Shown: piece after piece, positions 7,538 to 34,269 of the stretch
How the letters are laid out: each line of letters begins with the position of its first letter
Position numbering within the stretch: the stretch's first letter is position 1
Assembly (NCBI GenBank): GCA_001002765.1
Contig: LCMS01000001.1
Coordinates: 4,662 to 68,661, forward strand
Direction: 5' to 3'
Source: Candidatus Uhrbacteria bacterium GW2011_GWE2_46_68
GTDB lineage: Bacteria > Patescibacteriota > Patescibacteriia > UBA9934 > GWF2-40-263
Length of the DNA: 64,000 nt
Made by a program: the position numbers and the translations under genes
The notes under the pieces: model-generated
Seen by the model: only the letters and a program-made list of their open reading frames with translations
Told to the model about the DNA's origin: nothing
The model's database searches: none

Positions 7538-7590
7538 AGGGGCGAACGGCCGTTTTGTACGGTAGGGGCGAACGGCCGTTCGCCCCTACC
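7538..7590. repeat. GC-rich perfect palindrome ggtaggggcgaacggccgttcgcccctacc with an adjacent half-copy
   Basis: The 30-nt self-complementary sequence was read directly; it belongs to a family of six copies. Confidence 0.9.
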
Positions 7591-7616
7591 TTAGCCAAAA
7601 AGCGACCGTGATGGCC

Positions 7617-7645
7617 TTGACAAAATGACGTTTTTTTGTTATAGT
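7617..7645 (+). promoter_or_regulatory. near-consensus sigma70 promoter TTGACA-N17-TATAGT
   Basis: ttgaca at 7617-7622, a 17-nt spacer, then tatagt at 7640-7645. Confidence 0.6.
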
Positions 7646-7651
7646 AGGACG

Positions 7652-7809
7652 TTCAGAATTTGGCAAAAGTACACGGATTTGCGCCATGTTTACAAGGATA
7701 ATGCTTGCGAAGACCTGTTACGAAGCGGGTTTAGCCGGCAACACACGAGGGTGAGAGTAGGGAATCCAAAGGGATTTCCATATCCACACCCTCAAACGGG
7801 TGTTTTTTC
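7652..7809 (+). ncRNA. candidate structured RNA (sRNA or riboswitch-like leader) ending in an intrinsic terminator
   Basis: About 160 nt between the consensus promoter and the terminator acaccc-tcaaac-gggtgt-TTTTTT. An alternative helix gagggtg (7747-7753) with caccctc (7787-7793) overlaps the terminator 5' arm. No ORF is present. Confidence 0.4.
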
Positions 7810-7810
7810 A

Positions 7811-7862
7811 TAATTTCCAATCCCTTCATTCATTAGAAATTGGAAATTAGTAATTGGAAATT
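7811..7862. repeat. AT-rich palindromic repeat (aatttccaat ... attagaaattggaaattagtaattggaaattt), copy R5
   Basis: Near-identical to 32637-32682 and the inverse of 31933-31975 and 32566-32610. Confidence 0.8.
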
Positions 7863-8048
7863 TACCCACCTCCTTGTCCCCATAGTGCAACTCCGTGACT
7901 TGAGGAAGTTCTTTCCAATAGAACGGAGAAACAGCAAAAAGATCAGTCAACCATACGGGCAAGGTTCTATCCCTGCCCACCCACACCAAACCCGCACGCT
8001 TGCGTGCGTCACGCTTCGCGTTCCAACTACCCCAAGGAGAAAAACACC

Positions 8049-9857
8049 ATGCGTTCCCTTCTTCTCGCTACTCTCATCTTCACCTCGGGCTGCAACCCAG
8101 CTTTCATCTTCGACGGCACCTCCACTGACACCGGCAGCGTCATCGACGACGACACTGGCATCCAGATCGAGGACACCGACATCGAAGATGGCTTCGAGCA
8201 GGGCCCCCAGATCGATCCCGACGACCTCGACAACCTCTTCGACGAGGACGAGACCGACGCGGACGAGGACGGCAGCCCGGCTTCCGAGGACTGCGACGAT
8301 CACGACGACGATGTGTACCCTGGTGCCACCGAGAAGTGCGACGGCGATGACAATGACTGCAACGGCGAAGTGGACGAGGGCTGCTCCGACAGCTCCTACA
8401 CCTACTACCGCGACAGCGACAGCGACGGGTACGGCGACAGCGCCGTGACCACGACCGTCACCACGGCCACGGCCCCCACGGGCTACGTCGCAAACGATGA
8501 CGACTGCGATGACATGAGCGCAGCCGTGAGCCCCGCCGACGCCGAGATCTGCAACAGCATCGATGACGACTGTGATGGCAGCGTGGACGAGGGCGTCACC
8601 ACCACCTTCTACGCCGACACCGATACCGACACCTATGGCAACGTGGCCTCCACCAAGGCCGCGTGCAGCCAGCCCACGGGCTACGTCGCAAACGATGATG
8701 ACTGCAACGACAGCACCTCCTCGGCCCACCCGGGCGCGACTGAGAGCTGCAATGACAGCATCGACAACGACTGCGATGGCGATACCAACGAGGGCTGCAC
8801 CGGCAGTGCCTCGGACAACGATGGCGACGGCTACACCGAGGACGGCGGCGACTGCGATGACACCGACAACAGCGTCCACCCGGGCGCCACCGAGACCTGC
8901 GACAGCGAGGACGACGACTGCGACGGCATCGTGGATGAGAGCGTGACCGTGACCTACTACCGCGACAGCGACAGCGACGGCTACGGCGTGGCGACCACCA
9001 CGATCGCGGCCTGCTCCGCACCGAGCGGGTACGTCACCAACTCGACCGACTGCAATGATGTGAGCGGAAGCGTCCACCCGGGCGCGACCGAGACCTGCAA
9101 CTACACGGATGACGATTGCGACGGATCCACGGACGAGGGCGTGATCAACACGTACTACCGCGACAGCGACAGCGACGGCTATGGCGTGAGCACCACGACC
9201 ACGGCCGCCTGTTCCGCTCCCACGGGCTACGTCACGAACTCGACTGACTGCAACGACACCAGTGCGGCCGTGAGCCCCGCCGATGTCGAGATCGACAATG
9301 ACATCGATGATGACTGCGACGGTACGATCGACGAGGGCTTCACCAGCACCTCGGATCCCTGCAGCGGGCAGCTCGCCTGCTTCGTGAACGATGACAGCGA
9401 CAGCTACAACGATGTCCTCTACGTCCATATGTCCCTCTTCACCCAGGGCTCGACCTACCAGACCCACGACGCGGTCGTGGTCGGGATCGGCGGCTCCTGG
9501 GACCTGAATGACGACAACGTGGCCGTGATCGAAGATGGTTCGTGGTTCGTGATCGACCCCAGCACCTGGTCGTGCGGAGTCGAACAAGATGTCACCCTCG
9601 TGTCCTCCCTGGACAACGACGGCGTCGATCTGTTCGATGAGTACGACTGCGATACGGATGAAGAGCTCGAGACGTCCGCCTGCGACGGAGTAGTTTCCTA
9701 CGCCACCTGGTCTTCCGAGGCCATCTGGCTCCAGAATTACGCCTTCTGCACGGGCGGATCGACGATCGCCGGCCAGATCTGTGAAAGCCAGGGCACCACG
9801 TCGTACCTCTTCTCCCTGGAGGTCGACTGCAGCACCCGCGAGTTCCGGGCGGATTAG
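8049..9857 (+). CDS. lipoprotein with about 7 MopE-type Cys/Asp-rich repeats and a distinct C-terminal domain
   Basis: Start chosen at MRSLLLATLIFTSGC|N (lipobox) with aaggag 10 nt upstream. Repeats read DCDD.DDDV.PGA.E.C.G.DNDC.G.VDEG, alternating with YYRDSDSDGYG. Confidence 0.7.
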   Translation: MRSLLLATLIFTSGCNPAFIFDGTSTDTGSVIDDDTGIQIEDTDIEDGFEQGPQIDPDDLDNLFDEDETDADEDGSPASEDCDDHDDDVYPGATEKCDGDDNDCNGEVDEGCSDSSYTYYRDSDSDGYGDSAVTTTVTTATAPTGYVANDDDCDDMSAAVSPADAEICNSIDDDCDGSVDEGVTTTFYADTDTDTYGNVASTKAACSQPTGYVANDDDCNDSTSSAHPGATESCNDSIDNDCDGDTNEGCTGSASDNDGDGYTEDGGDCDDTDNSVHPGATETCDSEDDDCDGIVDESVTVTYYRDSDSDGYGVATTTIAACSAPSGYVTNSTDCNDVSGSVHPGATETCNYTDDDCDGSTDEGVINTYYRDSDSDGYGVSTTTTAACSAPTGYVTNSTDCNDTSAAVSPADVEIDNDIDDDCDGTIDEGFTSTSDPCSGQLACFVNDDSDSYNDVLYVHMSLFTQGSTYQTHDAVVVGIGGSWDLNDDNVAVIEDGSWFVIDPSTWSCGVEQDVTLVSSLDNDGVDLFDEYDCDTDEELETSACDGVVSYATWSSEAIWLQNYAFCTGGSTIAGQICESQGTTSYLFSLEVDCSTREFRAD

Positions 9858-9966
9858 CCGTTCCGTTCGTCTCCGTTCCTACGTTATACGCGAGCCCCTT
9901 GTCTTTGTTCACACTTCGGTGTGTTCATTGACCAGGGGCTCTTGTTGTTTTCAAGGTTGATGATCC

Positions 9967-10018
9967 GGTAGGGGCGAACGGCCGTTCGCCCCTACCGTAC
10001 CGGCCGTTCGCCCCTACG
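9967..10018. repeat. GC-rich palindrome copy P2 plus a half-copy
   Basis: ggtaggggcgaacggccgttcgcccctacc followed by gtaccggccgttcgcccctacg. Confidence 0.9.
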
Positions 10019-10219
10019 ATTCATTGACATTTTTGCCAAAATATGGTAAAAACTTAGGCCAATTTTGGCTGAAAATATCGCTGATTTGACATAAAAACCT
10101 CTGGTTTAGGGATTTTTATGTCAGGTCAGTTCAGAGGTTCCTTCCACCATCGTGCGTTACGACCTGGCGCGCGATATTTCCAACAATGACCCGACCCCCA
10201 ACCCTCAAGGGAGGTTTCC

Positions 10220-12955
10220 ATGCGTCTTTTTCTGTGTGGTCTCTTTCTCATCTCCGGCTGCGAGTTTTTCGGCCCGGCCAGCGTTTTCGACGACACCAAG
10301 CCCGATGATTCGGGCACTATCGACACCGGTGCCCCCTGCGAAGAGCAGGCCTGGTACCGCGACAGCGACGGCGATGGGTACGGCATCTCGGTTTCCGAAA
10401 CCTGGGCCTGTGAGGCCCCCGAAGGCTTCGTGGCCAACGGCAAGGACTGCGATGACGACGACCCTGCGGTCAACCCCGGAGCGGTCGAAGTCTGCAACGG
10501 GATCGATGACAACTGCGACGGTGAGATCGACAACGATCCCGACGGCGACGACATCTGGTACATCGACGCGGACAGCGATGGCTACGGCAACCCGGACATG
10601 GCCCAGGACTGCGATGGCTATGACTGGTTCGTGAGCCAGGCGGGCGACTGCAACGATCTCGACCCCGCGGTCAACCCCGCGGCCACCGAGCTGTGCGACG
10701 AAGTCGACAACGACTGCGACGACACGATCGACGAGGATGATGCGGCCGATGCCACGCCCTGGTACGAGGACTTCGATGGCGATCTCTACGGCAACCTTGC
10801 CGTGGTGCGTGACGCCTGTGCGGAGCCCGAGGGCTACGTGGCCGACGCAACCGACTGCGATGACACGGACGCGGGTGTGAACCCCGACGCCAGCGAGTTC
10901 TGCGACGAGAAGGACAACAACTGCAACAGCGAAGTGGACGAGGGTGTGACCCTCACCTTCTACGCCGATGCTGATGCCGATCTCTACGGCGACGTGGGCA
11001 ACACCACGGAGGCCTGCCTCCTGACCGACGGCTACACCGAGGACGCAACCGACTGCGATGACGATGATCCCGCGGTCAACCCCGGCGCGGTCGAAGACTG
11101 CAATGGCATGGATGACGACTGCAACGGCGAAGTGGACGAGGGCGTGACCCTCACCTTCTACGTCGATGTCGACGCCGATCTCTATGGCGACGCGATGGTC
11201 TACGTCGAGTCCTGCGAAGCCCCCACGGGCTATGTCGCGGACGCGACCGACTGCAACGATGCCACGGCAAGCGCCTACCCGGGCGCTGACGAGTACTGCG
11301 ACACCCTCGACAACGACTGCGACAGCGTGGTCGACGAGAGCGACGCGATCGATGCCGGCGACTGGTTCGCGGATGCGGATGGCGACCTCTACGGTGATGT
11401 GACCATGGCCTTGCGCGCCTGCATGGCGCCCATGGGCTATGTCGCGGACGCGACCGACTGCAACGATGACACTGCGAGCGCCTACCCCGGCGCCAGTGAG
11501 TACTGCGACACCCTCGACAACGACTGCGACAGCGTGGTCGACGAGAGCGACGCGATCGATGCCCCGACCTGGTACACCGATCTGGACACGGACGGCTACG
11601 GCGACGCGATCACGGCCACCTTCTCTTGCACCGCCCCTGCGGGCATGATCGAGGACGGCACGGACTGCGATGACCTGGACCGTTCGGTTCATCCCAATGC
11701 CACCGAATTCTGTGATGAGATGGACAATGACTGCGATGGCCTGGTCGACGAAGAGCGGGGCAACCTGTTTTTCGCCGATGCGGATGGCGACGGTTTCGGT
11801 GACCCCTCGGTCTCTTCGGAGGCCTGTGCGGCTCCCTTGACCTATGTCGCTGACGACACGGACTGCGATGACACCGACGCGGGTGTGAATCCCGGCGCCG
11901 ACGAGCTCTGCAACGGGCTCGATGACGACTGCGATGGCACGCTGGACGAGGATGCCACGGAAATGAGCGCCTGGTACCTGGACTACGACAACGATTCCTT
12001 TGGGAATTGGATGGCGCAGACCTGGTCGTGTGATCAGCCCGCAGGCTATGTGGCTGACGCCACGGACTGCAATGATCTTCTCTCCTCGGTTTTCCCAAGC
12101 GCCTCCGAGACCTGCAACGGGCTCGATGACGACTGCGACGGCACCACCGATGAGGGGGTGAAGACCACTTTCTACGCGGATGCGGACGCGGACGGCTACG
12201 GCAACGTGGCTGTGACCGAGGAAGCTTGCGATCCCTCCGAAGGGTTCGTCTATGATTCCACGGACTGCGACGATGCCGATGTGGATGTGAACCCCGGCGC
12301 CGACGAGTTCTGCAACAGCCTCGATGACAACTGTGATGGCACGGTGGACGAGGATGATGCGGTCGACGCCCCGACCTGGTACGCGGACAGTGATCTCGAC
12401 CTCTACGGTGATGAGAACAACACCCTGGAGGTGTGCACCGCTCCCGCGGGCTACATCGCCGACGCGACCGACTGCGATGACACCGATGATCTCGTGAACC
12501 CCGAGGGGATCGAGATCTGCGATGACACGATCGACAACGACTGCGACGGGGACACCGACCTTTCCGACGAGTGCCTCTATGAAGGAACCTACACGGGAAC
12601 CTTCGAGGCCGATGTTACCTTGACCGCCTTCGGGATCACGGACACCTGTGAGGGTGCTGTGGAGCTCGATGTTGCGATCGACGGGGAGCCCATGATCTTC
12701 GGTGAGGCGTCATGTGCCTTCTCGGGATTGTTCGCCACCTATTACGCTGACGACATCATCGGCGCGATCGAGGGAGACATCTTCTCGGACATGGATGCCG
12801 AGGGCGATCTCTACGATGACGACGAGATCTTCTCGTCCATCTGGACCGGGATTTTCGACACCGATGAGCTCGACGCCACGTTTGTGGGTGAGGGTACCCT
12901 CCTTGGGTACGCCTACACCTATGACGGGACGTTCGAGACGATTTACACGCCCTAG
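10220..12955 (+). CDS. large lipoprotein (911 aa) with at least 12 MopE-type Cys/Asp-rich repeats
   Basis: Lipobox LISGC|E and RBS gggagg. Repeating DCDD.D..VNPGA.E.CNG.DDDCDG..DE ... WY.D.DGDLYGD units. Confidence 0.7.
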   Translation: MRLFLCGLFLISGCEFFGPASVFDDTKPDDSGTIDTGAPCEEQAWYRDSDGDGYGISVSETWACEAPEGFVANGKDCDDDDPAVNPGAVEVCNGIDDNCDGEIDNDPDGDDIWYIDADSDGYGNPDMAQDCDGYDWFVSQAGDCNDLDPAVNPAATELCDEVDNDCDDTIDEDDAADATPWYEDFDGDLYGNLAVVRDACAEPEGYVADATDCDDTDAGVNPDASEFCDEKDNNCNSEVDEGVTLTFYADADADLYGDVGNTTEACLLTDGYTEDATDCDDDDPAVNPGAVEDCNGMDDDCNGEVDEGVTLTFYVDVDADLYGDAMVYVESCEAPTGYVADATDCNDATASAYPGADEYCDTLDNDCDSVVDESDAIDAGDWFADADGDLYGDVTMALRACMAPMGYVADATDCNDDTASAYPGASEYCDTLDNDCDSVVDESDAIDAPTWYTDLDTDGYGDAITATFSCTAPAGMIEDGTDCDDLDRSVHPNATEFCDEMDNDCDGLVDEERGNLFFADADGDGFGDPSVSSEACAAPLTYVADDTDCDDTDAGVNPGADELCNGLDDDCDGTLDEDATEMSAWYLDYDNDSFGNWMAQTWSCDQPAGYVADATDCNDLLSSVFPSASETCNGLDDDCDGTTDEGVKTTFYADADADGYGNVAVTEEACDPSEGFVYDSTDCDDADVDVNPGADEFCNSLDDNCDGTVDEDDAVDAPTWYADSDLDLYGDENNTLEVCTAPAGYIADATDCDDTDDLVNPEGIEICDDTIDNDCDGDTDLSDECLYEGTYTGTFEADVTLTAFGITDTCEGAVELDVAIDGEPMIFGEASCAFSGLFATYYADDIIGAIEGDIFSDMDAEGDLYDDDEIFSSIWTGIFDTDELDATFVGEGTLLGYAYTYDGTFETIYTP

Positions 12956-12983
12956 CTACGGCTATAGGAGGCGGATAACACGA

Positions 12984-13016
12984 AGCGGCAGCTGACGACC
13001 AGCGCCGCTTTTTTCG
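12984..13016 (+). terminator. Rho-independent terminator
   Basis: agcggc-N14-gccgct followed by tttttt. Confidence 0.6.
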
Positions 13017-13026
13017 TTGAGAAGTA

Positions 13027-13221
13027 GGGGTCAGGTCCGGACATCGGACTTTTTGGAGAGACAATGAAAATTTAACGCATTTTTTACTTTTTTTAGAAGA
13101 TATTCATCACTTTTTTATCCATCAATGCATTAAAACTGAAAAAATATAAGGAGCATTTTCCTCAAAATAAGAGAAGTATTTTTGATCTTTCTTGAAAAAG
13201 TCCGATGTCCGGACCTGACCC
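13027..13221. mobile_element. MITE-like element (195 bp) with 28-bp perfect terminal inverted repeats GGGGTCAGGTCCGGACATCGGACTTTTT
   Basis: TIRs read directly and the interior is AT-rich and non-coding. It shares the outer GGGGTCAGGTC with the element at 52441-52597. Confidence 0.55.
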
Positions 13222-13260
13222 CACAACCCGATTTGTTTTGTGCTACAATACACTTAAGAT

Positions 13261-16031: not shown

Positions 16032-16034
16032 ATC

Positions 16035-16067: not shown

Positions 16068-16076
16068 ATTAAACGG

Positions 16077-17231
16077 TTAAGATGCGCTCTTTTCCACGAT
16101 CGGCTCCATACAGGATATCTCGTAGAGATAAGCGGTCTTTTGGGCAATATCTCGCCAATCATAGTGAGTTGCCACATAAGTCCGTGCTTCAACTCCGACT
16201 GCTTTCACAAGGTCAGGATGGGTGATCAGCATCTTCAAATGTCCGGCAAGATCATCCACATTATTGGTTTGAAAGGTAAGTCCGGCTTCATCGGTTAATT
16301 CTCGGTTTTCCGGAATATCCGAAGAAAGCACACACTTGCCATAGCCCATGGCTTCCAAAACCGCGATCGGAAGACCTTCAGATTCAGAGGGGTGCACAAC
16401 TGCATAGGAAAAACGAAAGAGAGCGTGGAGCACCGGGCCGGTCTGTGTTCCTGTAAAGACAATTGAGGGGTCATTTTGCGCAAGCGCATGAAGCTCGCGG
16501 ATATAATCCTCGGTAAACGCACTTCCTCCTACAATTGCCAATTTTTTTTGTCCCACAAGTTGAGGCTCATGTGCACGAAGGATCTTCCAAGCTTTGATAA
16601 GCGTGTGAGCCCCTTTATGGCGCACAAGGCGAGAACACATCATGAGATATTCATTTGGAACCAAATCATAGTCTTTGAGGTAAGAAGGGTCTGCATCTTC
16701 CAAGGGGATTTGGGTTCCGTTTGGAATATAGATCGCATGGATTCCATAGCGTTTTTGACAGTATGTTTGGAGAGTTTTGGAGACAACAATGGTGGCGTCA
16801 GGAATACGGCAAGCCATCCATTCTCCAAGCCAAAGCATAAGGCGCGCAAAGGCATTCCATTTTTGATGATGGCGATCCACGCAGTGAAAGGTCACGATCA
16901 CCTTAGCGGAAGGACGTAAGATTTTCGGAAGCCAGGCAAGAAGAGCTGGGCCCACACCATGGATATGAAACACATCCACCTTTTCGCGGGATGCGCGGAG
17001 AATGGAAGTGAAGGTATGGGTAATGGCGTCCAAGTGTTTGGTTTTGATACAGGGAGTTTCTAAACAACGGATTCCACAATAATTGTCCTGCGCCTGTGCA
17101 TACCAACGACGACAAAACACCAAAACCTCATGGCCTTGTTTGACGAGCATCTTGGACAACTCTTCCACATGGCGCTCAATACCGCCGGCATGGGAAGGAA
17201 TGCCCTTTTGTCCGATCATGGCTATCTTCAT
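16077..17231 (-). CDS. glycosyltransferase family 4
   Basis: MKIAMIGQKGIPSHAGGIERHVEEL at the N-terminus and ESEGLPIAVLEAMGYGKCVL at the C-terminus; start trimmed to MKIAMIG. Confidence 0.7.
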   Translation of the reverse strand: MKIAMIGQKGIPSHAGGIERHVEELSKMLVKQGHEVLVFCRRWYAQAQDNYCGIRCLETPCIKTKHLDAITHTFTSILRASREKVDVFHIHGVGPALLAWLPKILRPSAKVIVTFHCVDRHHQKWNAFARLMLWLGEWMACRIPDATIVVSKTLQTYCQKRYGIHAIYIPNGTQIPLEDADPSYLKDYDLVPNEYLMMCSRLVRHKGAHTLIKAWKILRAHEPQLVGQKKLAIVGGSAFTEDYIRELHALAQNDPSIVFTGTQTGPVLHALFRFSYAVVHPSESEGLPIAVLEAMGYGKCVLSSDIPENRELTDEAGLTFQTNNVDDLAGHLKMLITHPDLVKAVGVEARTYVATHYDWRDIAQKTAYLYEISCMEPIVEKSAS

Positions 17232-17326
17232 AAAACAGGTTATATTAGCAAAAAATAGGCATTTTGTCAATCGTTTGAGGTGGATAACATCAAAAAATAA
17301 GGGGAAAAGCCCATGTTTTTCAATAC

Positions 17327-17376
17327 GGTAGGGGCGAACGGCCGTCTGTAGGGGCGAACGGCCGTTCGCCCCTACG
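17327..17376. repeat. GC-rich palindrome copy P3 (a half-copy plus a full copy) in a divergent promoter region
   Basis: ggtaggggcgaacggccgtc followed by tgtaggggcgaacggccgttcgcccctacg. Confidence 0.9.
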
Positions 17377-17454: not shown

Positions 17455-18687
17455 GTGGGAAAAACAAATCAAAAAACGCGCGGACTGGGATTTTTGATTC
17501 TCCTTCCAAAGTTCATACCTAAGATTTTTGGTTTTCTTTTCAAGTTTCTAAAGATGGCAAAAGGATTCAAGATCGGTATGGCCGTAGCAACTTTCGGCAG
17601 CTATACCTGGCTGTTTAGCTGGCAGTTCGCATTGCTTCTCATGGGAAGCATCTTTTTTCACGAACTCGGGCATATTCGCGCCATGAAGGCCTACGGAATG
17701 AAAACCAAGGGAGTCTATTTTCTTCCATTTTTGGGAGCCGCGGCCGTAACCGAGGATCAATTTTCCTCTCGTCACACTGAGGCTGTTATCGGTCTTTGGG
17801 GTCCTGTTTGGGGACTTATCCTTTCCATGATTTTTTTTGACATCTATGCGTGGACGGGAAGTCCGCTTATGGCCGGGATTGCCGGATGGTGTGCGCTTGT
17901 GAATCTTTTCAATTTGCTCCCGATCAAACCTCTTGATGGAGGGAGGATTGTGTCTTCGATCGCGTTTTCGTTTTCCAGGCGCACGGGAATGACTGTTATG
18001 CTCGCCGGGCTTAGTCTTGCCTTTATCCTTGCAATAGTCACAAAGATCAGTATCTTTCCTCTGATCGTTTTTATCGGTTTTTTGGAGGTGTTGAGCGAGT
18101 GGAGAGATATTCCGGACGTTCGTGGTTTGCGAGAATCTTTGAGGGAAAAGGTGAAGACCGTGATTGGCTGTGATCCGGACGCTCCTAAAAATGAGATTTT
18201 GAAGAGAATGTTTGAATCAAACATATCCGAAACATTTTCCAATTTTCCCCTTGAGACAAGAGAACATATCCGGGAAATTGTGGGATCAGAAAAACTGACC
18301 TTGGAGAATTTTGTACAGCTCAAATACACAGAGGACGTTTCCGGGGCGTTGTTGCACGTCGTTTACACACAGGTCGAATTAAAGATGTTGACTCTTCTTC
18401 TTGAGGCAAATGTAAGAAAGCGTTGGAGATTTTTCAGGATGTTTCATTGCGACCCCAAACTTCTGCGTGATACCGTCTTGCAGAGCAGTTTTGCTGAAGC
18501 GTTTTTCGGTATTCTAAACGGTACTTTTGAACTCTCGCAAAAGACTTCAAGGCCTCTTATGGACACCAAGTCCATTGTCGTCACGATCGCCGGAACGATG
18601 ATAGTTATCGCTCTTCTTATCAGCATCATCTATTTGTCTGCCATTGATCCAGGATCCATGGTCGCGCTCCGGATTCTTCAAAGCTAG
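17455..18687 (+). CDS. site-2-protease-like M50 family membrane metalloprotease with a long C-terminal extension
   Basis: HELGH zinc motif and NLLPIKPLDGGRI motif; multiple TM segments. Confidence 0.55.
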   Translation: MGKTNQKTRGLGFLILLPKFIPKIFGFLFKFLKMAKGFKIGMAVATFGSYTWLFSWQFALLLMGSIFFHELGHIRAMKAYGMKTKGVYFLPFLGAAAVTEDQFSSRHTEAVIGLWGPVWGLILSMIFFDIYAWTGSPLMAGIAGWCALVNLFNLLPIKPLDGGRIVSSIAFSFSRRTGMTVMLAGLSLAFILAIVTKISIFPLIVFIGFLEVLSEWRDIPDVRGLRESLREKVKTVIGCDPDAPKNEILKRMFESNISETFSNFPLETREHIREIVGSEKLTLENFVQLKYTEDVSGALLHVVYTQVELKMLTLLLEANVRKRWRFFRMFHCDPKLLRDTVLQSSFAEAFFGILNGTFELSQKTSRPLMDTKSIVVTIAGTMIVIALLISIIYLSAIDPGSMVALRILQS

Positions 18688-18688
18688 A

Positions 18689-24375: not shown

Positions 24376-24394
24376 AAAAAAGAAGGGGCAGGAC

Positions 24395-26294: not shown

Positions 26295-26502
26295 GTTTCC
26301 CTTCGATCCGGGTATCTTTTCCAAGGATATCCGGATCGGGGCTGACCCGACTTCTTCTTTTCTACGCAAGTGGAAAAAGAGGAGTGAATGTGTTTTTTAC
26401 AGGTGGATGATAGAAAAGTCGAGGCTTGAAAAAGCCATTGTCCACTTTAATTCCGAAAAAAGGTTCGCCCGGTATAACCCCCGGGTAAAAAATTACTTTC
26501 TT

Positions 26503-29500: not shown

Positions 29501-30264
29501 ATTCCACCGGCGTGGAGACAACCGAAACGTCAGGAACAGAATTCTCTGGTTTGGCCGGTAACTCGGTTTACGTCTACAAGTCCATCCCAACCGTCAGCAT
29601 CGTTGATTTGACAAACAATGATTTGTCAAACGGCAATGCCCAGGATATCTACAAGTTTACCGTCGCAGCAGCCAGCAACAGCTCGATTGCTCTCAAGCAA
29701 ATCAAGCTCAATGTGACCTGGAGCGATGGCGGAACCGACGATACCCTCGAGGTTGAAACCCTCAAGTTCTACAAGAATGGCACGGATATTTCTTCCAGTG
29801 TCACCATCGTAGACGAGGACGGAAACCTTGTGTCAAGCACCAGTGGTTTGCTCGAAACCGATGGCACATGTGTCATTACCTTCAGTAGCACAGAGGACAC
29901 CATCTCCGCAGGCAGCTCGGTTACTTACACCGTCAAGGGAACCCCAACCGGTTTCCGCGTGCTCGGTGCAACCGATACAGCTCGCGACAGCGTGGCTCTC
30001 TACCTCAAGGGTGATGCATCACACAATGGAACCAGCACATATTTGAACGATGAAACCGATATTGGCGCAGGTCAGTCCGAGATTATGGAACTCCTTGACA
30101 GTGCAGCCGTCAGTTCCAGCGATGGTACTGCCGCGAACTTCATCTGGTCTGATATGAGTTCGATCTCCCACACCTACGACATCAACGCTTCGTCTTCAAG
30201 CGATTGGGCAAACGGTTACTTGGTCTTGAATCTTGATTTGGATTCAGAATCATGGGGCCGATAG
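26503..30264 (+). CDS. giant secreted surface protein (~1250 aa), S-layer/adhesin-like
   Basis: Signal peptide MGKKAFTVFVAAATLLWTVGVVSFVAPLAAKA and a T/S/D/G-rich beta-rich repetitive body; start trimmed to MNDVLKMGKK. Confidence 0.6.
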   Translation: MNDVLKMGKKAFTVFVAAATLLWTVGVVSFVAPLAAKAASYDAGDLIKGETFSTVYYYGTDGLRYSFPNEKTYFTWYTDFDDVVTISDEDLGDISLGGNIVYRPGSRWIKVDNMAEVYAVSTDGTIHWIEDADVAEDLAGANWNQFIDDVPDVFFSDYAAGDSIVDASEGYDGMLVDDEGTTYLIWDGEKREVSDMDANRFNSDYVLDGDGVDLDSMTTGDEIDSELDNMTDTAQVVDEETYTETTEVTVSVADDSPDSLTLASGTDTTVDVNGFANLVSYEFDNPTDEDLTVTSFALNRGGVSSDTTLSNVYLFDGYVRLTDSATLSSGKVTWNDTSGLFTIPAGTSATIDVWGDIAYATSGQTVYLKIASADDITFDGSYEATGDFPLQGATHSIATVSNLSYFDVNATTTPSASSIDAQDDYRIWENTVNIGNNEMYLYSIRFRNIGSIDADDIENFRLYVAGVNYGDAVANQDANGYVTFDLSDDPVKMNTGNHIVKVLADIIGGSTRTVSMSLRTAADVVAMDEDYDQATVTTDGGGTAFANHDAGAQTINSGTLVISKSLTSASGNVTNGATNMSLAKFDVKAYGEDMKVENLNFYVDESDNDTAFTLRNGAVYADGVQIGSTAALASNSDATLAYTAYTFGSSLVIEPGETVVIEVKGDIYDSDGTNDCANADTLQVNMDNTTSSNVLRRTSGSYTTYPSADVAANTLTVAQGSLTVAKNTSYADQSTVAPKTAYKLGSFTIASSTTEVVNITQFDVDFTDADAFDASDDLTNLYIEYGPTSAYNTSSIKGTVTDSDNTWSVNYALAASTTIYVNIYADIPTSSTNGDGIADTMRPSLTITAQGASSAADASATVVTGQTVTSTTGSFTESEDSMPAAKVVAANQEVEAAKFRFTASNETYNIKEVTVSVTSATVAGVIGTANLYDGSTLIGSAAFDQSSNMRALIYVTGGLEVPYNTYKTLTVKLDLNDVGTGSGTSQQDAAITLYSVKFADSTGVETTETSGTEFSGLAGNSVYVYKSIPTVSIVDLTNNDLSNGNAQDIYKFTVAAASNSSIALKQIKLNVTWSDGGTDDTLEVETLKFYKNGTDISSSVTIVDEDGNLVSSTSGLLETDGTCVITFSSTEDTISAGSSVTYTVKGTPTGFRVLGATDTARDSVALYLKGDASHNGTSTYLNDETDIGAGQSEIMELLDSAAVSSSDGTAANFIWSDMSSISHTYDINASSSSDWANGYLVLNLDLDSESWGR

Positions 30265-30275
30265 TTTGACAGATA

Positions 30276-30298
30276 GGTGCGAACAACCGTTCACACCC
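30276..30298. repeat. degenerate member of the GC palindrome family (ggtgcgaacaaccgttcacaccc)
   Basis: GAAC-N4-GTTC core with flanking complementarity. Confidence 0.5.
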
Positions 30299-30316
30299 AC
30301 GAAACACAAAAACAGG

Positions 30317-30347
30317 CTTTCGGGCCTGTTTTTGTTTGGCGATTGAT
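30317..30347 (+). terminator. Rho-independent terminator after the giant gene
   Basis: aaaacaggc-tttcgg-gcctgtttttg. Confidence 0.65.
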
Positions 30348-30405
30348 TTTTTTACTTTTTTTAGTTAACGTATGGAGGTGAAGTTAACAAAATATAGAAA
30401 AAAGT

Positions 30406-30633
30406 ATGGATATTCAAGATAAGATTTTAAGTGCGGTTCTCGATATCCAAGGAGATGTAAAAGATCTAAAAGAACGGATGGGGAAAATGGAAGATGTTCA
30501 AGGAAGGGTTTGTGACAAGTTGGACAGTTTCATGATCCTTATCAATCGTCATGAAGCAGAGATCGCAGCCGTGCGATCTAAACTTGAAAGACTGGAAGAT
30601 CGTTTGAGCCAACTAGAAACCGCCCGAGTGTAA
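30406..30633 (+). CDS. small coiled-coil protein (75 aa)
   Basis: Heptad-rich ORF; a terminator aaaccgcc ... ggcggttttattttt (30617-30650) encloses the stop codon. Confidence 0.4.
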   Translation: MDIQDKILSAVLDIQGDVKDLKERMGKMEDVQGRVCDKLDSFMILINRHEAEIAAVRSKLERLEDRLSQLETARV

Positions 30634-30854
30634 AAGGCGGTTTTATTTTTCCAATCGAGCGGCAAGAGACCTTAAAACGCGTTTTACCTTGCGTCTGCTC
30701 ATGCGAATACAAACACGACGAATGGCTTTATCAAGACTTGCATCCTCCTTTTGCCTGGCTGACCAAGAAAGTGTGAGAGGATAGTAACGAAGGGAAAGAG
30801 TAGACATAGAGTTTTTTTTGGGATTCTTTTGATCAGACGAACGGTTGTGTGTCC

Positions 30855-30884
30855 GGTAGGGGCGAAGGGCCCTTCGCCCCTACC
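30855..30884. repeat. GC palindrome variant P4 (ggtaggggcgaagggcccttcgcccctacc)
   Basis: A perfect palindrome whose centre differs from the other copies by compensatory substitutions. Confidence 0.9.
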
Positions 30885-30969
30885 GTTTGTTCCATACAGA
30901 GACAGAAAGGACATCGTGATCAAAAGAATCATTAAGAATGAAAAGACAAGAGGAGCGTAGGGAAGATGT

Positions 30970-31251
30970 ATGAAGGTTGTTGATGGAGGGGAAAGAACGA
31001 TTTTTTATAAAGAAGACCCTGAAGCCCCTCTTGTCTTGGCACATTATTGTGAAAGGACAAACAGAAACATGATTGTTTTCTCCACCTATTACTTTTACAA
31101 TATAAAAGACGTCGGATCCGCAAGGATAAGGTGTCATACAAGGACGTTGATCAATGTCTTGCCAGACATCAACGTCCTTTGGTTTTTTGGTAGGACTTAC
31201 GTGTTTGGATGCAGAACGAGGAAAAACCGAGGCTTTTTGCGAGGCGTATGA
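30970..31251 (+). CDS. hypothetical protein (93 aa). It is ambiguous with an antisense 139-aa ORF at 30880-31299 that would sit 12 bp downstream of lexA
   Basis: ggaag RBS-like sequence upstream; only one of the two overlapping ORFs can be real. Confidence 0.25.
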   Translation: MKVVDGGERTIFYKEDPEAPLVLAHYCERTNRNMIVFSTYYFYNIKDVGSARIRCHTRTLINVLPDINVLWFFGRTYVFGCRTRKNRGFLRGV

Positions 31252-31310
31252 GACATACGTTGAGTAAAAAATGCAGGTTTTGACAAAGTTATGCGCCAAA
31301 CACGTAAGTC

Positions 31311-31931
31311 CTACACTGGCCTAAACTTACGAATCACTGCACGGACAACTCCTTGAATAATGCAATCTTTAACATAAATAGGCTGCATGGTGCTATTGGC
31401 CGGCTGGAGACGAATACGATTTTGCTCGCGATAAAAACGTTTGAGTGTGGCATAGGCATTATCAAGAAGCGCCACTACGACCTCGCCATTTTTTGGTGAA
31501 GGATTACGCTCTACCACCACAAAATCTCCATCTAAGATGCCATCCTCAATCATAGACTGACCTTTGACACGCAAGACATACGAATTGGCGCCATCCACCA
31601 CAAAGGTGGTGGGGACAGCCATGGTTTCGCGATCTTCTACGGCCTCGATAGGCTCGCCGGCTGTAATGAGTCCGGATAAAGGGAGCAAAACAGCATAAGC
31701 GGTTTGGGCAGATTCGTCCTTGATAAGCTCAATGGACCGCGCCTCGCCACCTTCACCCATGGTGATCGCGTTTTTTTCAAGAAGCGCTTTGACATGTTGA
31801 TGAACCGTAGCGGGGGAGGAAAGACCAAGAGAATCCGCAATCTCCCGATAACTTGGCGCATACCCATGCTCGGAAAAATAGGTGCGAATAAAGTGCAAAA
31901 CCTCGGCTTGTTTTTTTGTGAGAGAGTTCAT
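31311..31931 (-). CDS. lexA: LexA repressor (S24 peptidase)
   Basis: N-terminal winged HTH (GYAPSYREIADSLGLSSPATVHQHVKAL), an Ala-Gly cleavage site (ITAGEP) and the serine motif GQSMIEDGILDGDFVVVE; start trimmed to MNSLTKKQ. Confidence 0.8.
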   Translation of the reverse strand: MNSLTKKQAEVLHFIRTYFSEHGYAPSYREIADSLGLSSPATVHQHVKALLEKNAITMGEGGEARSIELIKDESAQTAYAVLLPLSGLITAGEPIEAVEDRETMAVPTTFVVDGANSYVLRVKGQSMIEDGILDGDFVVVERNPSPKNGEVVVALLDNAYATLKRFYREQNRIRLQPANSTMQPIYVKDCIIQGVVRAVIRKFRPV

Positions 31932-31932
31932 A

Positions 31933-31975
31933 AGATTCAAGAATTTCCAATTTCTAATATCTAATTTCCAATGAA
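31933..31975. repeat. AT-rich repeat R1 (agaatttccaatttctaatatctaatttccaatg) immediately upstream of the lexA start
   Basis: Family member; the inverse orientation of R4 and R5. Confidence 0.75.
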
Positions 31976-31992
31976 GGAAAAAGATAGATATT

Positions 31993-32364
31993 TTAAGAAA
32001 AAGTTTGAATTGAGTAATTCGGATTATTTTTTGTTTTTTGAATGATAGCATGAAGAATAAGATGAATTTCTTTTACTTCCTGCCATAATTTCTGGATGGA
32101 TTCATTCTGTTCTGGTTGGGCAACCGATACCATCTTTAGCCAATATTTTGTTTCCTCGGCTTCCTTTTTGGCAATAAAGAATTTATGGATGAAATCTTTC
32201 CTCGAAGACGCATTATCAGCTTCACAATAGTTAGCACCTACACTTGTACCAGATTTAACAAGTTGTGAAATAAGAGGTTTTGAAATGATGTTTTGGGGAA
32301 CCTTCTTAACGAATTCTATGATATTTTTTCCAAATTCATTTGTTCGACTTTTGATGTCATACAT
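31993..32364 (-). CDS. four-helix-bundle protein (23S rRNA intervening-sequence protein family, TIGR02436-like)
   Basis: GKNIIEFVKKVP...QLVKSGTSVGANYCEADNASSRKDFIHKFFIAKKEAEETKYWL matches the family signature. Confidence 0.7.
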   Translation of the reverse strand: MYDIKSRTNEFGKNIIEFVKKVPQNIISKPLISQLVKSGTSVGANYCEADNASSRKDFIHKFFIAKKEAEETKYWLKMVSVAQPEQNESIQKLWQEVKEIHLILHAIIQKTKNNPNYSIQTFS

Positions 32365-32418
32365 AGATTTCCTTCATTATCCGACGGAGCCAGATCCGGC
32401 TTTGCCGGAGAAATTAGG

Positions 32419-32447
32419 AATTGGAAATTAGAAATTTTTGTTTTGTG
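32419..32447. repeat. AT-rich repeat R2 (agaaattaggaattggaaattagaaattt)
   Basis: Family member with a ccggctttgccgg hairpin just upstream. Confidence 0.7.
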
Positions 32448-32495
32448 TTCGTTGTTTGTTCGTATTTATAATAGAGCGAACAAAATACGAACACA
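32444..32495. promoter_or_regulatory. 19-bp inverted repeat (TGTGTTCGTTGTTTGTTCG / CGAACAAAATACGAACACA) bracketing a perfect TATAAT; a candidate operator-promoter
   Basis: Read directly. It lies about 80 bp upstream of the 4HB-lexA transcription unit on the minus strand and about 190 bp upstream of metK on the plus strand. The arms contain GTTCG/CGAAC motifs. Confidence 0.5.
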
Positions 32496-32565
32496 AGAGT
32501 CTATCTGTGGATAACATATCATCTGGAAGAAGGGGTGAAATCTTGGTACGCTTCCAGCGGATTAT

Positions 32566-32610
32566 TAAGAGAATTTCCAATTTCTAATGTCTAATTTCTA
32601 ATGTAGGCGC
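32566..32610. repeat. AT-rich repeat R3 (gagaatttccaatttctaatgtctaatttctaatg)
   Basis: About 90% identical to R1. Confidence 0.75.
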
Positions 32611-32636
32611 CTATCGGCGATATTTGAAATAAATAT

Positions 32637-32682
32637 CCCCATTCATTAGAAATTAGTAATTGGTAATTGGAAATTTTTATCT
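32637..32682. repeat. AT-rich repeat R4 (ccccattcattagaaattagtaattggtaattggaaattt)
   Basis: About 85% identical to R5 at 7811-7862. Confidence 0.8.
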
Positions 32683-32686
32683 CATT

Positions 32687-33745
32687 ATGCCCAAAGTCGT
32701 TGAATCGGTTTTAGCCGGACAGCCCGACAAAGTCTGCGATCAAATCGCAGATGCGATTGTGGATGAATATCTTCGTCGTGATCCTGACGCGTCCGTTGAC
32801 CTTCATGTTATGGGTTCTCATGGCATGATGATGATCGGGGGCGAAGTTCATTCCAAGGCCGACTTTGATCTTTCCGAACTTGCCAAACAGGTTTATCAAA
32901 AAATCGGTTATACCGATGACGTTGAAGTGTTTGTAAATATTGATCAACCTTCCTCTGAAATGCAGCTTCTGGATCGTCATCTCCCCGGTGACACCGTGGT
33001 TGTAAACGGTTACGCCACACTCGAGACAAGGGAACGTTTACCGCGAGCGCTTGTGTATGCTCATGATATGGCAAGGAGACTTGATAATCTCCGCAAAACC
33101 GATCCGGCATTTGGCTGGCTCCAACCCGACGGAAAAGTCCAGGTCATGGTGTGGAAAAGTGAAGTGAAGGCTGTAACCATTCTGGCTTCTCATGCCAAAG
33201 ACGTGGAACTCAAGACTGTACAAAGCGCGCTTTTGGATCGTGTGATTGTACCGATTGTGGGCGAAGAAGGTGTGCAGATTTTTATCAACCCCATTGGACC
33301 GTTTACTATTCACGGATTTTCCGCAGATTCAGGAGCCAGCGGCCGCAAACTTGCTGTGGATACCTATGGAGCTCTGATCCCTCATGGTGATCACACATTG
33401 TCTGGCAAAGATCCCATGAAGGCCGAGCGCGCGGGGACCTATATGGCACGTTATGTGGCACGTTGGCTTGTAGAGCGGGAACTCGCGGAAAGTGCCTTGG
33501 TGACGATCGCCTACACTATGGGGCGATCCGAACCTTTGCTTATCAAAGCTCAAGGAACGGCGACAAAATCTCGCGGAGTCAGGATGGATCTTTCCAATGT
33601 GATCAAACGTGAATTTGATTTTCGACCCGAGGCCATTGTGGATCGTCTCGAACTCAAACAGCCTATTTATGAGCAAACGGCTGTGTACGGACATTTTGGA
33701 AGAACCGGATTTCCTTGGGAAAAGAAAATCGAAAAAACAGGGTGA
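32687..33745 (+). CDS. metK: S-adenosylmethionine synthetase
   Basis: ESVLAGQPDKVCDQIADAIVDEY (compare GHPDK) and HGDHTLSGKDPMKAERAGTYMARYVARWLV (compare [26 protein letters not shown]). Confidence 0.8.
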   Translation: MPKVVESVLAGQPDKVCDQIADAIVDEYLRRDPDASVDLHVMGSHGMMMIGGEVHSKADFDLSELAKQVYQKIGYTDDVEVFVNIDQPSSEMQLLDRHLPGDTVVVNGYATLETRERLPRALVYAHDMARRLDNLRKTDPAFGWLQPDGKVQVMVWKSEVKAVTILASHAKDVELKTVQSALLDRVIVPIVGEEGVQIFINPIGPFTIHGFSADSGASGRKLAVDTYGALIPHGDHTLSGKDPMKAERAGTYMARYVARWLVERELAESALVTIAYTMGRSEPLLIKAQGTATKSRGVRMDLSNVIKREFDFRPEAIVDRLELKQPIYEQTAVYGHFGRTGFPWEKKIEKTG

Positions 33746-33758
33746 TTCCCTGTTTTTA
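33733..33758 (+). terminator. Rho-independent terminator for metK (aaaaaacagggtgattccctgttttt)
   Basis: The stop codon lies in the loop. A near-identical copy occurs at 34221. Confidence 0.7.
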
Positions 33759-33969
33759 AGGGGGTTTCACCCCCTTGCCCCCTCTCCGCTTTTCTTTGGC
33801 CTGCAAAGAAAAGCGGAAGAAAAGAAACAGGCCGCCCGCCTGCGCTCGCCAGGCCACCTTTGGCACCGCGAGCCTTGGCTGTGGAACGTCGCTTGCCTCC
33901 TGCGGCTGACAGAAAAATGTAACGGTCAGCCTTGGAGGCTTCGCTCAAACAATCCTCGCCACAACAAGC

Positions 33970-34154
33970 CTATAGTTATCACATCATGAAACAGGATTTA
34001 TTCATCCGCAATGATGGCGGTCTGCTTGTCCTTCGCACAGAAAAATCCTCAATGTATCTACGGATACATCTGCGGTTTTCCTGTGCTGCAGGACGGCGCA
34101 TCCCATCCATCCTTGCGGCGTCTAAAGTCCCGTTTCATGATGTGATAACTATAG
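33970..34154. mobile_element. MITE-like element (185 bp) with 23-bp perfect terminal inverted repeats CTATAGTTATCACATCATGAAAC
   Basis: Read directly. The interior is GC-rich and hairpin-rich, and no gene-like ORF is present. Confidence 0.45.
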
Positions 34155-34220
34155 CTTGTTGTCGGCTCACTTGTGCCAAGGTGGCTCTGACGTGCTCGGA
34201 GGGCGGGATAAAGATCAGAT

Positions 34221-34269
34221 AAAAACAGGGTGATGCCCTGTTTTTTTGTATGTAGGGGTGAACGGCCGC
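34221..34269. terminator. bidirectional terminator (aaaaacagggtgatgccctgttttttt) plus a degenerate GC palindrome P5 (gtaggggtgaacggccgctcacccctta)
   Basis: The hairpin with T-runs on both strands serves the convergent minus-strand RNase J-like gene. Confidence 0.65.

What the first reader, a model, noticed from the sequence alone, without database searches (positions are those of the whole stretch)
7538..34269. Family of perfect 28-30-bp GC-rich palindromes with compensatory variants and a GAAC-N4-GTTC core
The self-complementary 30-mer GGTAGGGGCGAACGGCCGTTCGCCCCTACC occurs at 7561, 9967 and 17347, each with an adjacent half-copy. A variant at 30855, GGTAGGGGCGAAGGGCCCTTCGCCCCTACC, keeps perfect dyad symmetry by changing both halves. 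That compensatory change argues for selection on the hairpin, the cruciform or a dimer-binding site. Degenerate relatives lie at 30276 and 34242. Most copies sit at gene 3' ends or between convergent genes, which is REP-like behaviour. One sits in a divergent promoter region at 17.3 kb. Three decorate the high-GC island. The core CGAAC-GGCC-GTTCG matches the GAAC-N4-GTTC architecture of the Gram-positive LexA (Cheo) box, and a lexA gene lies in this window. That link is only a hypothesis.
Basis: partly seen in the sequence, partly recalled or inferred. Interest (0 to 1): 0.7.

Follow-up and report, generated by a model that had tools for sequence, protein, structure and literature searches.

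The report
Double-foot REP palindromes in a CPR bacterium
The GC-rich palindromes are real, but they are ordinary REP elements, the small hairpin repeats linked to RAYT (TnpA_REP) tyrosine transposases, found here in a Candidatus Uhrbacteria genome, and they are not LexA operators.

Summary
The 28-mer GTAGGGGCGAACGGCCGTTCGCCCCTAC occurs exactly three times (7562, 9968, 17348). A variant that keeps the symmetry by changing both halves lies at 30856. Two decayed copies lie at 30273 and 34252. Three of the four intact copies carry an extra arm. All six are intergenic, and none is expected by chance.

The window comes from a Candidatus Uhrbacteria (CPR) genome, not a Gram-positive one. The motif TAGGGGCGAA-N6-TTCGCCCCTA occurs in more than 120 genomic loci across many phyla. 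Flanks are unrelated, the feet are conserved as GTAG...CTAC, and the centres vary but stay symmetric. The same hairpin lies in frame (VGANGRSPL) between the HuH and Tyr motifs of a very large RAYT family, including two CPR genes. Copies outside those genes match the copy inside.

This is the "double-foot" REP of TnpA_REP subclass 2.4 described by Quentin et al. 2018, so it is a new member of a known kind.

The LexA idea fails. The copy nearest lexA reads GAAG/CTTC. Other genomes read GAAT or GAAA at that position. No such box precedes lexA.

No cognate RAYT was found in about 85 kb. The only Y1 gene nearby is of a different type, flanked by terminal inverted repeats.

The parts
7562..7589 (.). 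Full double-foot REP, GTAGGGGCGAACGGCCGTTCGCCCCTAC (the 30-mer is 7561-7590). It is intergenic, 27 nt upstream of a consensus-like promoter at 7617-7645.
7538..7554 (.). Extra left arm plus centre (AGGGGCGAACGGCCGTT), 7 nt upstream of the full copy. It can pair with the far arm to make a 17-bp stem.
   Evidence: (I5)
9968..9995 (.). Full double-foot REP (the 30-mer is 9967-9996), between the two co-directional MopE-repeat genes.
10001..10017 (.). Extra right arm plus centre (CGGCCGTTCGCCCCTAC), 5 nt downstream of the full copy.
   Evidence: (I7)
17348..17375 (.). Full double-foot REP in the divergent region between the GT4 gene (16077-17270, minus strand) and the M50 peptidase gene (17455-18687, plus strand).
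17327..17345 (.). Extra left arm plus centre (GGTAGGGGCGAACGGCCGT), 2 nt upstream of the full copy.
   Evidence: (I2)
30856..30883 (.). Variant REP GTAGGGGCGAAGGGCCCTTCGCCCCTAC. Pair 12-17 is changed from C-G to G-C. It lies between the convergent 75-aa gene (ends 30633) and lexA (ends 31311).
30273..30300 (.). Decayed REP ATAGGTGCGAACAACCGTTCACACCCAC. It lies 9 nt after the stop of the 1253/1285-aa gene and just before a canonical terminator (30306-30335).
   Evidence: (I15)
34252..34279 (.). Decayed REP GTAGGGGTGAACGGCCGCTCACCCCTTA. It lies just after a canonical terminator (34221-34245), between convergent metK and the beta-CASP gene.

Best explanation
These are repetitive extragenic palindromes of the GTAG-tagged superfamily. 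More precisely, they are the 'double-foot' type, with 5' GTAG and 3' CTAC, that goes with TnpA_REP/RAYT subclass 2.4 (Bertels group 4).

Each unit is a 28-nt hairpin-forming sequence. The foot GTAG-GGGC is the conserved recognition part. The inner stem and centre are free to vary as long as they stay complementary.

From published work on TnpA_REP, a HuH/Tyr single-strand DNA endonuclease binds the folded hairpin on single-stranded DNA, reads the GTAG foot, and cuts and rejoins next to it. Inferred here: such an enzyme spread and maintains the copies in this genome. Also inferred: the '1.5-copy' arrangements are by-products of imprecise processing, template switching, or deletion within REP dimers.

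Any effect on transcript ends would be secondary.
For: Shown here:
- There are four intact and two decayed copies, none expected by chance.
- All six are intergenic. About 11% of the DNA is intergenic by the gene table, so six out of six by chance is roughly 2e-6. This is my own rough arithmetic.
- The hairpins are strong: -18 to -25 kcal/mol, z-scores -6 to -7.
- Three different stem pairs are compensated within the window.
- TAGGGGCGAA-N6-TTCGCCCCTA occurs in more than 120 loci from many phyla. Flanks are unrelated. The base before is almost always G and the base after C.
- Copies from one genome share the same centre in 37% of comparisons, against 9% between genomes.
- No cargo gene recurs near the copies.
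- The identical sequence lies in frame inside RAYT-like genes (PF01797; NF047646). These include two CPR genes: L161 carries GGTAGGGGCGAACGGCCGTTCGCCCCTAC.
- In 80 RAYT loci chosen without using the hairpin, 44 carry an internal double-foot hairpin. In 8 of 16 loci that have both, an external copy is within 2 mismatches of the internal one, against 5% between loci.
- The family shows the subclass 2.4 motifs: NH[IFVLM]H in 200 of 203 proteins, WQxN[YF] in 194 of 203, Y[IV]x[NEHQ]NP in 158 of 203.

Literature: Quentin et al. 2018 (PMC6006769) describe double-foot REPs and in-frame REP insertions for subclass 2.4. Di Nocera et al. 2013 (PMC3733652) define GTAG REPs.
Against: - No subclass 2.4 RAYT gene was found in the window or in about 21 kb of extension.
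- The only Y1 gene nearby (L162:12908-13786, about 1.3 kb past the window end) is subclass 2.1-like. It is flanked by unrelated 33-nt terminal inverted repeats.
- The genome-wide copy number is unknown.
- All recovered strains are at least 99.6% identical, so no insertion polymorphism shows mobility.
- The dyad symmetry runs through the centre (pairs 13-16 and 14-15). A hairpin does not need this.
Confidence: 0.8

Rival explanations
1. The palindromes are LexA (SOS) operators of the Cheo-box type, GAAC-N4-GTTC, bound by the LexA encoded at 31311-31931.
For: Three intact copies and one decayed copy literally contain GAAC-N4-GTTC. A lexA gene is in the window.
Against: - The host is a CPR bacterium, not a Firmicute.
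- There is no such box upstream of lexA or of the gene that precedes it in the operon.
- The copy nearest lexA lies at the gene's 3' end and reads GAAG/CTTC.
- In other genomes the same element reads GAAT, GAAA or GAAG at this position, while GTAGGGGCGAA is what is conserved.
- The neighbouring genes are MopE-repeat, glycosyltransferase and M50 protease genes, not DNA-repair genes.
- A separate candidate operator, two GTTC-N7-GTTC motifs, lies upstream of the lexA operon.
Confidence: 0.03
2. The primary role is at the RNA level. The hairpins would end transcripts or protect 3' ends, and were selected for that rather than spread by a transposase.
For: - Three of the six copies lie at 3' ends or between convergent genes.
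- The stems are very stable.
- The copy at 30854-30885 is flagged terminator-like.
- Asymmetric centres such as TGATTA/TAATCA, which allow G-T(U) pairing on one strand only, are common in other genomes.
- Di Nocera et al. argue that many REPs act as RNA elements.
Against: - Five of the six copies have no T-run.
- The organism has its own canonical A-tract/T-tract terminators, and two of them sit right beside decayed copies.
- One copy is in a divergent promoter region, and at least one lies directly upstream of a promoter-like site.
- This reading does not explain why the same sequence lies inside RAYT genes across many phyla.
Confidence: 0.1
3. The palindromes are double-strand binding sites (or cruciforms) for some other dimeric protein, such as a nucleoid or topology factor. 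Perfect symmetry would be what is selected.
For: The dyad symmetry runs through the centre. Pairs 13-16 and 14-15 are complementary in 35 and 34 of 39 family variants, although a hairpin loop does not need this. In 172 copies, about half of the centres are perfect 6-bp palindromes.
Against: - Inner stem positions covary freely with all four base pairs. That fits a structure, not a sequence-specific operator.
- No candidate binding protein is linked to the copies.
- Quentin et al. note that a perfect double foot can arise simply by a central deletion in an inverted REP dimer.
Confidence: 0.05

Closest known systems
'Double-foot' long REPs of TnpA_REP subclass 2.4 (Quentin et al. 2018, BMC Genomics 19:475; equals RAYT group 4 of Bertels et al. 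2017)
   Same: - 5' GT[AG]G and 3' C[TC]AC feet, and a G-C run at the base of the stem.
- The same sequence is found in frame between the HuH and Tyr motifs of the tnpA_REP gene and in flanking copies.
- Scattered across many phyla.
   Different: - That paper lists Cyanobacteria, Bacteroidetes and 'various phyla'. A CPR/Patescibacteria host is not mentioned in the parts I read.
- No cognate gene was found within about 85 kb here.
- Three of the four intact copies carry an extra arm.
GTAG-tagged REP superfamily (Di Nocera et al. 2013); long-stem families such as GTAG-24
   Same: - GTAG tag and a GC-rich stem of 12-13 bp.
- Sub-families with alternative complementary stem residues.
- Singletons, dimers and trimers.
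- Mostly intergenic and downstream of genes.
   Different: In most GTAG families the tag is unpaired and present at one end only. Here it is paired with CTAC, so the unit has no orientation. The exact sequence GTAGGGGCGAA was not found in that paper or its supplements.
E. coli REP/BIME with TnpA_REP (YafM); REPINs of Pseudomonas
   Same: Small hairpin repeats tied to a single-copy, domesticated Y1 HuH enzyme that recognises GTAG plus a hairpin on single-stranded DNA.
   Different: - The E. coli REPs are imperfect, bulged and oriented, and form BIMEs.
- REPINs are inverted doublets with a spacer.
- Copy numbers there are in the hundreds, and the enzyme subclasses differ (2.2; 2.5).
Cheo box (LexA operator of Firmicutes and Actinobacteria)
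   Same: A literal GAAC-N4-GTTC in three intact copies.
   Different: The box is not conserved in the variants. It is not in SOS promoters. It sits inside a much longer conserved palindrome whose conserved part is the GTAGGGGC foot.

Membership tests
GTAG-tagged / double-foot REP (TnpA_REP subclass 2.4 type) | 5' GT[AG]G tetranucleotide at the foot of the hairpin and its complement C[TC]AC at the 3' end | tested here: met
   GTAG...CTAC is present in all four intact copies. It is partly eroded in the two decayed copies.
GTAG-tagged / double-foot REP (TnpA_REP subclass 2.4 type) | A 20-40 nt GC-rich stem-loop with consecutive G-C pairs at the base of the stem | tested here: met
   The unit is 28 nt, with GGGG/CCCC directly after the tag. 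Folding energy is -17.9 kcal/mol for the single unit, z = -6.6.
GTAG-tagged / double-foot REP (TnpA_REP subclass 2.4 type) | Multiple dispersed copies, predominantly extragenic | tested here: met
   Six copies in 64 kb, all intergenic. No further copy in about 21 kb of flanks. A genome-wide count was not possible.
GTAG-tagged / double-foot REP (TnpA_REP subclass 2.4 type) | Sub-families with complementary (compensated) stem changes | tested here: met
   Pairs 12-17, 8-21 and 6-23 are compensated within the window. Ten of 14 pairs show double-sided changes across 39 variants. Caveat: the variants from outside the window were selected for pairing in the outer stem.
GTAG-tagged / double-foot REP (TnpA_REP subclass 2.4 type) | The same sequence is found flanking and/or in frame inside a subclass 2.4 tnpA_REP gene (NH[IFV]H, WQ, YIxNNP) | tested here: met
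   Met in other genomes, including two CPR genomes. L161 carries the identical 28-mer internally. 44 of 80 unbiased loci carry an internal hairpin. The family motifs were checked.
GTAG-tagged / double-foot REP (TnpA_REP subclass 2.4 type) | A cognate RAYT gene in the same genome | tested here: inconclusive
   None was found in the window or in the flanks. The only nearby Y1 gene is subclass 2.1-like with unrelated terminal inverted repeats.
GTAG-tagged / double-foot REP (TnpA_REP subclass 2.4 type) | Binding and cleavage of the single-stranded hairpin by TnpA_REP | not testable with these tools
   This needs biochemistry.
LexA operator (Cheo box) | A CGAAC-RNRY-GTTYC consensus that is conserved among sites | tested here: not met
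   The centre GGCC breaks RNRY. The copy at 30856 reads GAAG/CTTC. Homologous elements elsewhere read GAAT/GAAA.
LexA operator (Cheo box) | Located in the promoters of lexA and other SOS genes | tested here: not met
   There is no GAAC-N4-GTTC upstream of lexA or its operon partner. The only matches in the window are the REPs themselves.
Intrinsic terminator | A GC-rich hairpin directly followed by a T-run, at gene 3' ends | tested here: not met
   Only one of six copies is flagged, with a weak tail. Canonical terminators lie beside two copies.
MITE | A 70-300 bp unit bounded by terminal inverted repeats, with conserved internal sequence | tested here: not met
   Nothing is conserved beyond the 28-30 nt palindrome and its extra arm.
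Known RNA families (Rfam 15) | A match at the gathering score | tested here: not met
   There were no matches in the whole window.

The most novel reading that the evidence does not exclude
The hairpin inside subclass 2.4 RAYT genes may not be a sporadic 'insertion'. It may be an ancestral part of the gene, fixed in position and selected at the nucleic-acid level.

It is present in 44 of 80 unbiased loci. All 152 encoded residue pairs obey base pairing. It keeps the same GTAGGGGC foot from Cyanobacteria to CPR.

On this reading the enzyme's gene carries a master copy of its own substrate. That copy would seed or re-seed the dispersed REPs, including those in this Uhrbacteria window, or it would regulate the gene itself. 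This would explain why an almost identical 26-28-mer is found across so many phyla.
Probability: 0.3. Interest if true: 0.6.

Novelty: new member of a known kind. Interest (0 to 1): 0.3.

Why it matters
It files a striking repeat under a described class and removes a tempting but wrong SOS-operator reading.

Two modest new points come out of it. First, double-foot REPs occur in a streamlined CPR genome. Second, their sequence is identical to the hairpin embedded in CPR RAYT genes.

If the embedded hairpin proves to be a functional master copy or a self-regulating site, it would bear on an open question: how REPs are generated and kept matched to their enzyme.

Tried and rejected
- **Literature by exact sequence.** GTAGGGGCGAA, its complement and the encoded peptides gave no relevant paper.
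- **Rfam.** No match at gathering score.
- **A recurring cargo gene next to the palindrome.** None in 120 loci. This did surface three RAYT-like genes.
- **Insertion polymorphism among strains.** All recovered contigs are at least 99.6% identical and all carry the copy.
- **A RAYT pseudogene next to the copy at 7562.** A tblastn hit (E = 0.002) rests on the REP-encoded VGANGRSPL alone, and a family profile finds nothing more.
- **The neighbouring Y1 gene as the cognate enzyme.** It is only 24% identical to subclass 2.4, and its terminal inverted repeats are unrelated.
- **A subclass 2.4 RAYT from Uhrbacteria by name.** No informative names were returned.
- **The extra arm as a general feature of the family.** It is only modestly enriched elsewhere: 10 of 172 copies against about 1.5 expected.
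- **Cheo-box reading.** Rejected.


Full report
**1. The observation**

A search with up to three mismatches finds the 30-mer GGTAGGGGCGAACGGCCGTTCGCCCCTACC exactly at 7561 and 9967. It is found with only its two outermost bases changed at 17347. The doubly substituted form GGTAGGGGCGAAGGGCCCTTCGCCCCTACC is at 30855. No match occurred in 100 dinucleotide-preserving shuffles. Looser searches add decayed copies at 30273-30300 and 34252-34279.

Aligned on the 28-nt core GTAGGGGCGAACGGCCGTTCGCCCCTAC, the window shows three independent compensated pairs:
- 12-17, C-G to G-C, at 30856.
- 8-21, C-G to T-A, at 34252.
- 6-23, G-C to T-A, at 30273.

Three of the four intact copies have one additional arm plus centre a few bases away: 7538-7554, 10001-10017 and 17327-17345. 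As single-stranded DNA the single unit folds at -17.9 kcal/mol. The 1.5-copy units fold at about -25 kcal/mol, by pairing the outer arms. Z-scores are -6 to -7.

**2. Context in the window**

Exact look-up of the LexA and MetK proteins names the source as Candidatus Uhrbacteria (CPR/Patescibacteria; for example GW2011_GWF2_46_218 and GCA_003519005.1). It is not a Gram-positive organism.

By the public gene calls and Pfam hits, all six copies are intergenic:
- 7562 lies between co-directional genes, upstream of the first large MopE-repeat gene.
- 9968 lies between the two large co-directional MopE-repeat genes.
- 17348 lies between a divergent glycosyltransferase gene and an M50 protease gene.
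- 30273 lies just after the stop of a 1253-aa gene.
- 30856 lies between a convergent 75-aa gene and lexA.
- 34252 lies between convergent metK and a beta-CASP gene.

From the gene table, about 11% of the DNA is intergenic. Six of six by chance is therefore roughly 2e-6, by my own rough arithmetic.

Only the copy at 30854-30885 scores as terminator-like. The organism's own terminators are A-tract/T-tract hairpins, and two of them sit right next to the decayed copies. Rfam has no match anywhere in the window.

**3. The element elsewhere**

About one match would be expected from pattern length alone, by my estimate. Hosts include Chloroflexota, Cyanobacteria, Bacteroidota, Planctomycetota, Desulfobacterota, Nitrospirota, Omnitrophota, Patescibacteria and Proteobacteria.

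Flanks are unrelated. The base before the motif is nearly always G and the base after it C, which gives GTAG...CTAC. The free centre stays symmetric or nearly so: CGGCCG, TAATTA, TAATCA/TGATTA, AAATTT, GCATGC, TGGCCA.

Copies from one genome share the same centre in 37% of pairs, against 9% between genomes. That is the pattern expected from amplification within a genome. No gene family recurs next to the copies. Thirty-three stretches of viral contigs also carry the motif.

**4. The link to a transposase family**

Three of the 120 loci hold a Y1/HuH gene with the palindrome inside or at the end of the reading frame. Its best matches are PF01797 and NF047646, "REP-associated tyrosine transposase". 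The NF047646 score is below that model's cut-off.

In frame, GTA GGG GCG AAC GGC CGT TCG CCC CTA reads VGANGRSPL.

Two protein searches returned 7,990 and 7,612 relatives. Of the 203 sequences retrieved from those two searches:
- 149 carry V-G-A-x-G-x-x-P-L after the HuH motif.
- 16 carry the alternative frame (…APT).
- Most of the remainder carry split or decayed versions.

The two residues whose first codon bases pair in the hairpin always co-vary compatibly: N/T/K with S, H/Q with A, D with P, Y/F with T. This holds in 152 of 152 instances and 9 of 9 pair types. Shuffled controls gave a mean of 116 and a maximum of 125. What is conserved is therefore the hairpin, not the peptide. These two searches are biased toward proteins that share words with queries containing the motif.

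An unbiased sample came from the metagenome scan, which used only the HuH and N-terminal peptide patterns.
- 44 of 80 loci have a 27-29-nt double-foot hairpin inside the gene.
- The foot GTAG-GGGC is conserved, and stem positions 9-13 take all four base pairs. The outer-stem pairing statistics are circular, because I selected for that pairing.
- The two central pairs were not selected for, and they are still complementary in 35 and 34 of 39 variants.
- In 16 loci with both internal and external hairpins, the external copy lies 9-220 bp from the gene in most cases.
- That external copy is within 2 mismatches of the internal one in 8 loci. The between-locus control gives 5%.

Two CPR genomes carry such a gene in the same syntenic slot: ileS-thiI-lemA-x-RAYT-NIF3. 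L161 contains GGTAGGGGCGAACGGCCGTTCGCCCCTAC. This includes the exact 28-mer core of the window, with the same 5' flanking G.

**5. Comparison with the literature**

Di Nocera et al. 2013 define GTAG-tagged REPs. Their stems are 6-13 bp, with sub-families of complementary stem variants, dimers and trimers, and RAYT association. Hosts are Proteobacteria, Cyanobacteria, Chloroflexi and the PVC group.

Quentin et al. 2018 describe exactly this case for TnpA_REP subclass 2.4, which equals Bertels group 4. Its motifs are HuH NH[IFV]H, WQ and YIxNNP. It has "double foot" REPs with 5' GT[AG]G and 3' C[TC]AC. REPs are inserted in frame between the HuH and Tyr motifs. The hosts are "Cyanobacteria, Bacteroidetes and various phyla". 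The family retrieved here has those motifs.

The kind is therefore known. Not found in the library searched:
- the sequence itself;
- any report of REPs in CPR, since none of the ten listed hits contains the REP term.

**6. Mechanism**

*Established in the literature (abstracts seen; PMC3479197, PMC8266576).* TnpA_REP binds REP hairpins on single-stranded DNA, recognises the GTAG foot, and cleaves.

*Shown here.* The window's repeats have the defining anatomy. They match the hairpin embedded in CPR subclass 2.4 genes. In other genomes the internal and dispersed copies are cognate.

*Inferred.* The Uhrbacteria copies were generated and are maintained by such an enzyme. The extra arms may come from imprecise processing, template switching, or deletion within dimers. 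Quentin et al. already suggest that a double foot can arise by a central deletion in an inverted dimer. The same arm-arm-arm' pattern appears in RAYT linkers (for example VGANDNVGANGRSPL) and in L149. Elsewhere it is only modestly enriched: 10 of 172 copies against about 1.5 expected.

**7. What remains open**

No subclass 2.4 gene lies in the window or in about 21 kb of extensions.

The only Y1 gene nearby lies 1.3 kb past the window end, after ftsW-murG. It has NHYH, FQ, YIVLNP and a long C-terminal tail. It is flanked by unrelated 33-nt terminal inverted repeats and is 24% identical to subclass 2.4. I classify it as TIRYT/subclass 2.1-like and not the cognate enzyme.

All recovered strains are nearly identical, so mobility is not shown directly.

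**8. The LexA hypothesis**

The only GAAC-N4-GTTC sites in the window are the repeats themselves. None precedes lexA or the PF05635 gene that heads its operon. The copy nearest lexA is at the gene's 3' end and reads GAAG/CTTC. Homologous elements in other genomes read GAAT, GAAA or GAAG.

The divergent region upstream of the lexA operon holds the only two GTTC-N7-GTTC motifs in the window, arranged as an inverted pair. From general knowledge, that is the alphaproteobacterial type of LexA box. It is a lead only.

**9. Verdict**

This is a real, non-random repeat family. It is a new member, in a CPR host, of a known kind: the double-foot GTAG REPs of RAYT subclass 2.4. The LexA link does not.

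Noticed in passing
window 7832-7862, 31942-31972, 32413-32436, 32572-32602, 32645-32675: An AT-rich repeat with a 7-nt period, AATTTCC/AATTTCT. On the coding strand it reads ATTRGWAATTRGWAATT. There are 14 matches against 0.43 expected. Each block lies just upstream of a gene start (a MopE gene, lexA, the PF05635 gene, metK). It may be a promoter or leader element.
   Followed up: partly
window 32447-32461 (+) and 32478-32492 (-): The only two GTTC-N7-GTTC motifs in the window form an inverted pair. They lie in the divergent region between the PF05635-lexA operon and metK. They are a candidate SOS operator of the direct-repeat type (I4, 34, 54).
   Followed up: partly
window about 6000-12500: A high-GC island (57-62% against about 45%). 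It coincides with three genes for MopE-type Cys-rich repeat proteins: 5075-6493, 8004-9857 and 10220-12955. Whether the cause is repeat composition or foreign origin was not examined.
   Followed up: no
L162:12859-13796 (about 1.3 kb beyond the window's right end): A 292-aa Y1_Tnp gene with NHYH, FQ, YIVLNP and a long C-terminal tail. It is flanked by 33-nt terminal inverted repeats (94% complementary) and sits next to a tRNA-like sequence (L162:12680-12752). It is TIRYT/subclass 2.1-like and unrelated to the palindromes.
   Followed up: partly
window 58062-59378 and 59382-60665: Tandem paralogous genes, about 78% identical at the nucleotide level. A further paralogue lies beyond the window (L162:20474-21116).
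   Followed up: no
L160:9981-10529 and L161:6329-6907: The subclass 2.4 RAYT genes of two CPR genomes occupy the same syntenic slot: ileS-thiI-lemA-x-RAYT-NIF3. This suggests vertical inheritance. The Falkowbacteria copy has NYFH in place of the HuH motif.
   Followed up: partly
L007:2634-6517 (Desulfacinum MAG); also L079: Here the palindrome is embedded in a longer inverted-repeat element. Two copies of it bracket a 3.8-kb segment.
   Followed up: no
L127-L159 (IMG/VR): The same palindrome occurs in 33 stretches of viral contigs, with five or more copies on one 36.7-kb contig. These could be vehicles for horizontal spread, or mis-binned host DNA.
   Followed up: no
L019:5059-5697: An Anaerolineaceae RAYT gene holds two different GTAGGGGC hairpins in frame (VGAGSQPAPV and RAGLEPAPT). 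A third, the CGGCCG type, overlaps its stop codon.
   Followed up: partly
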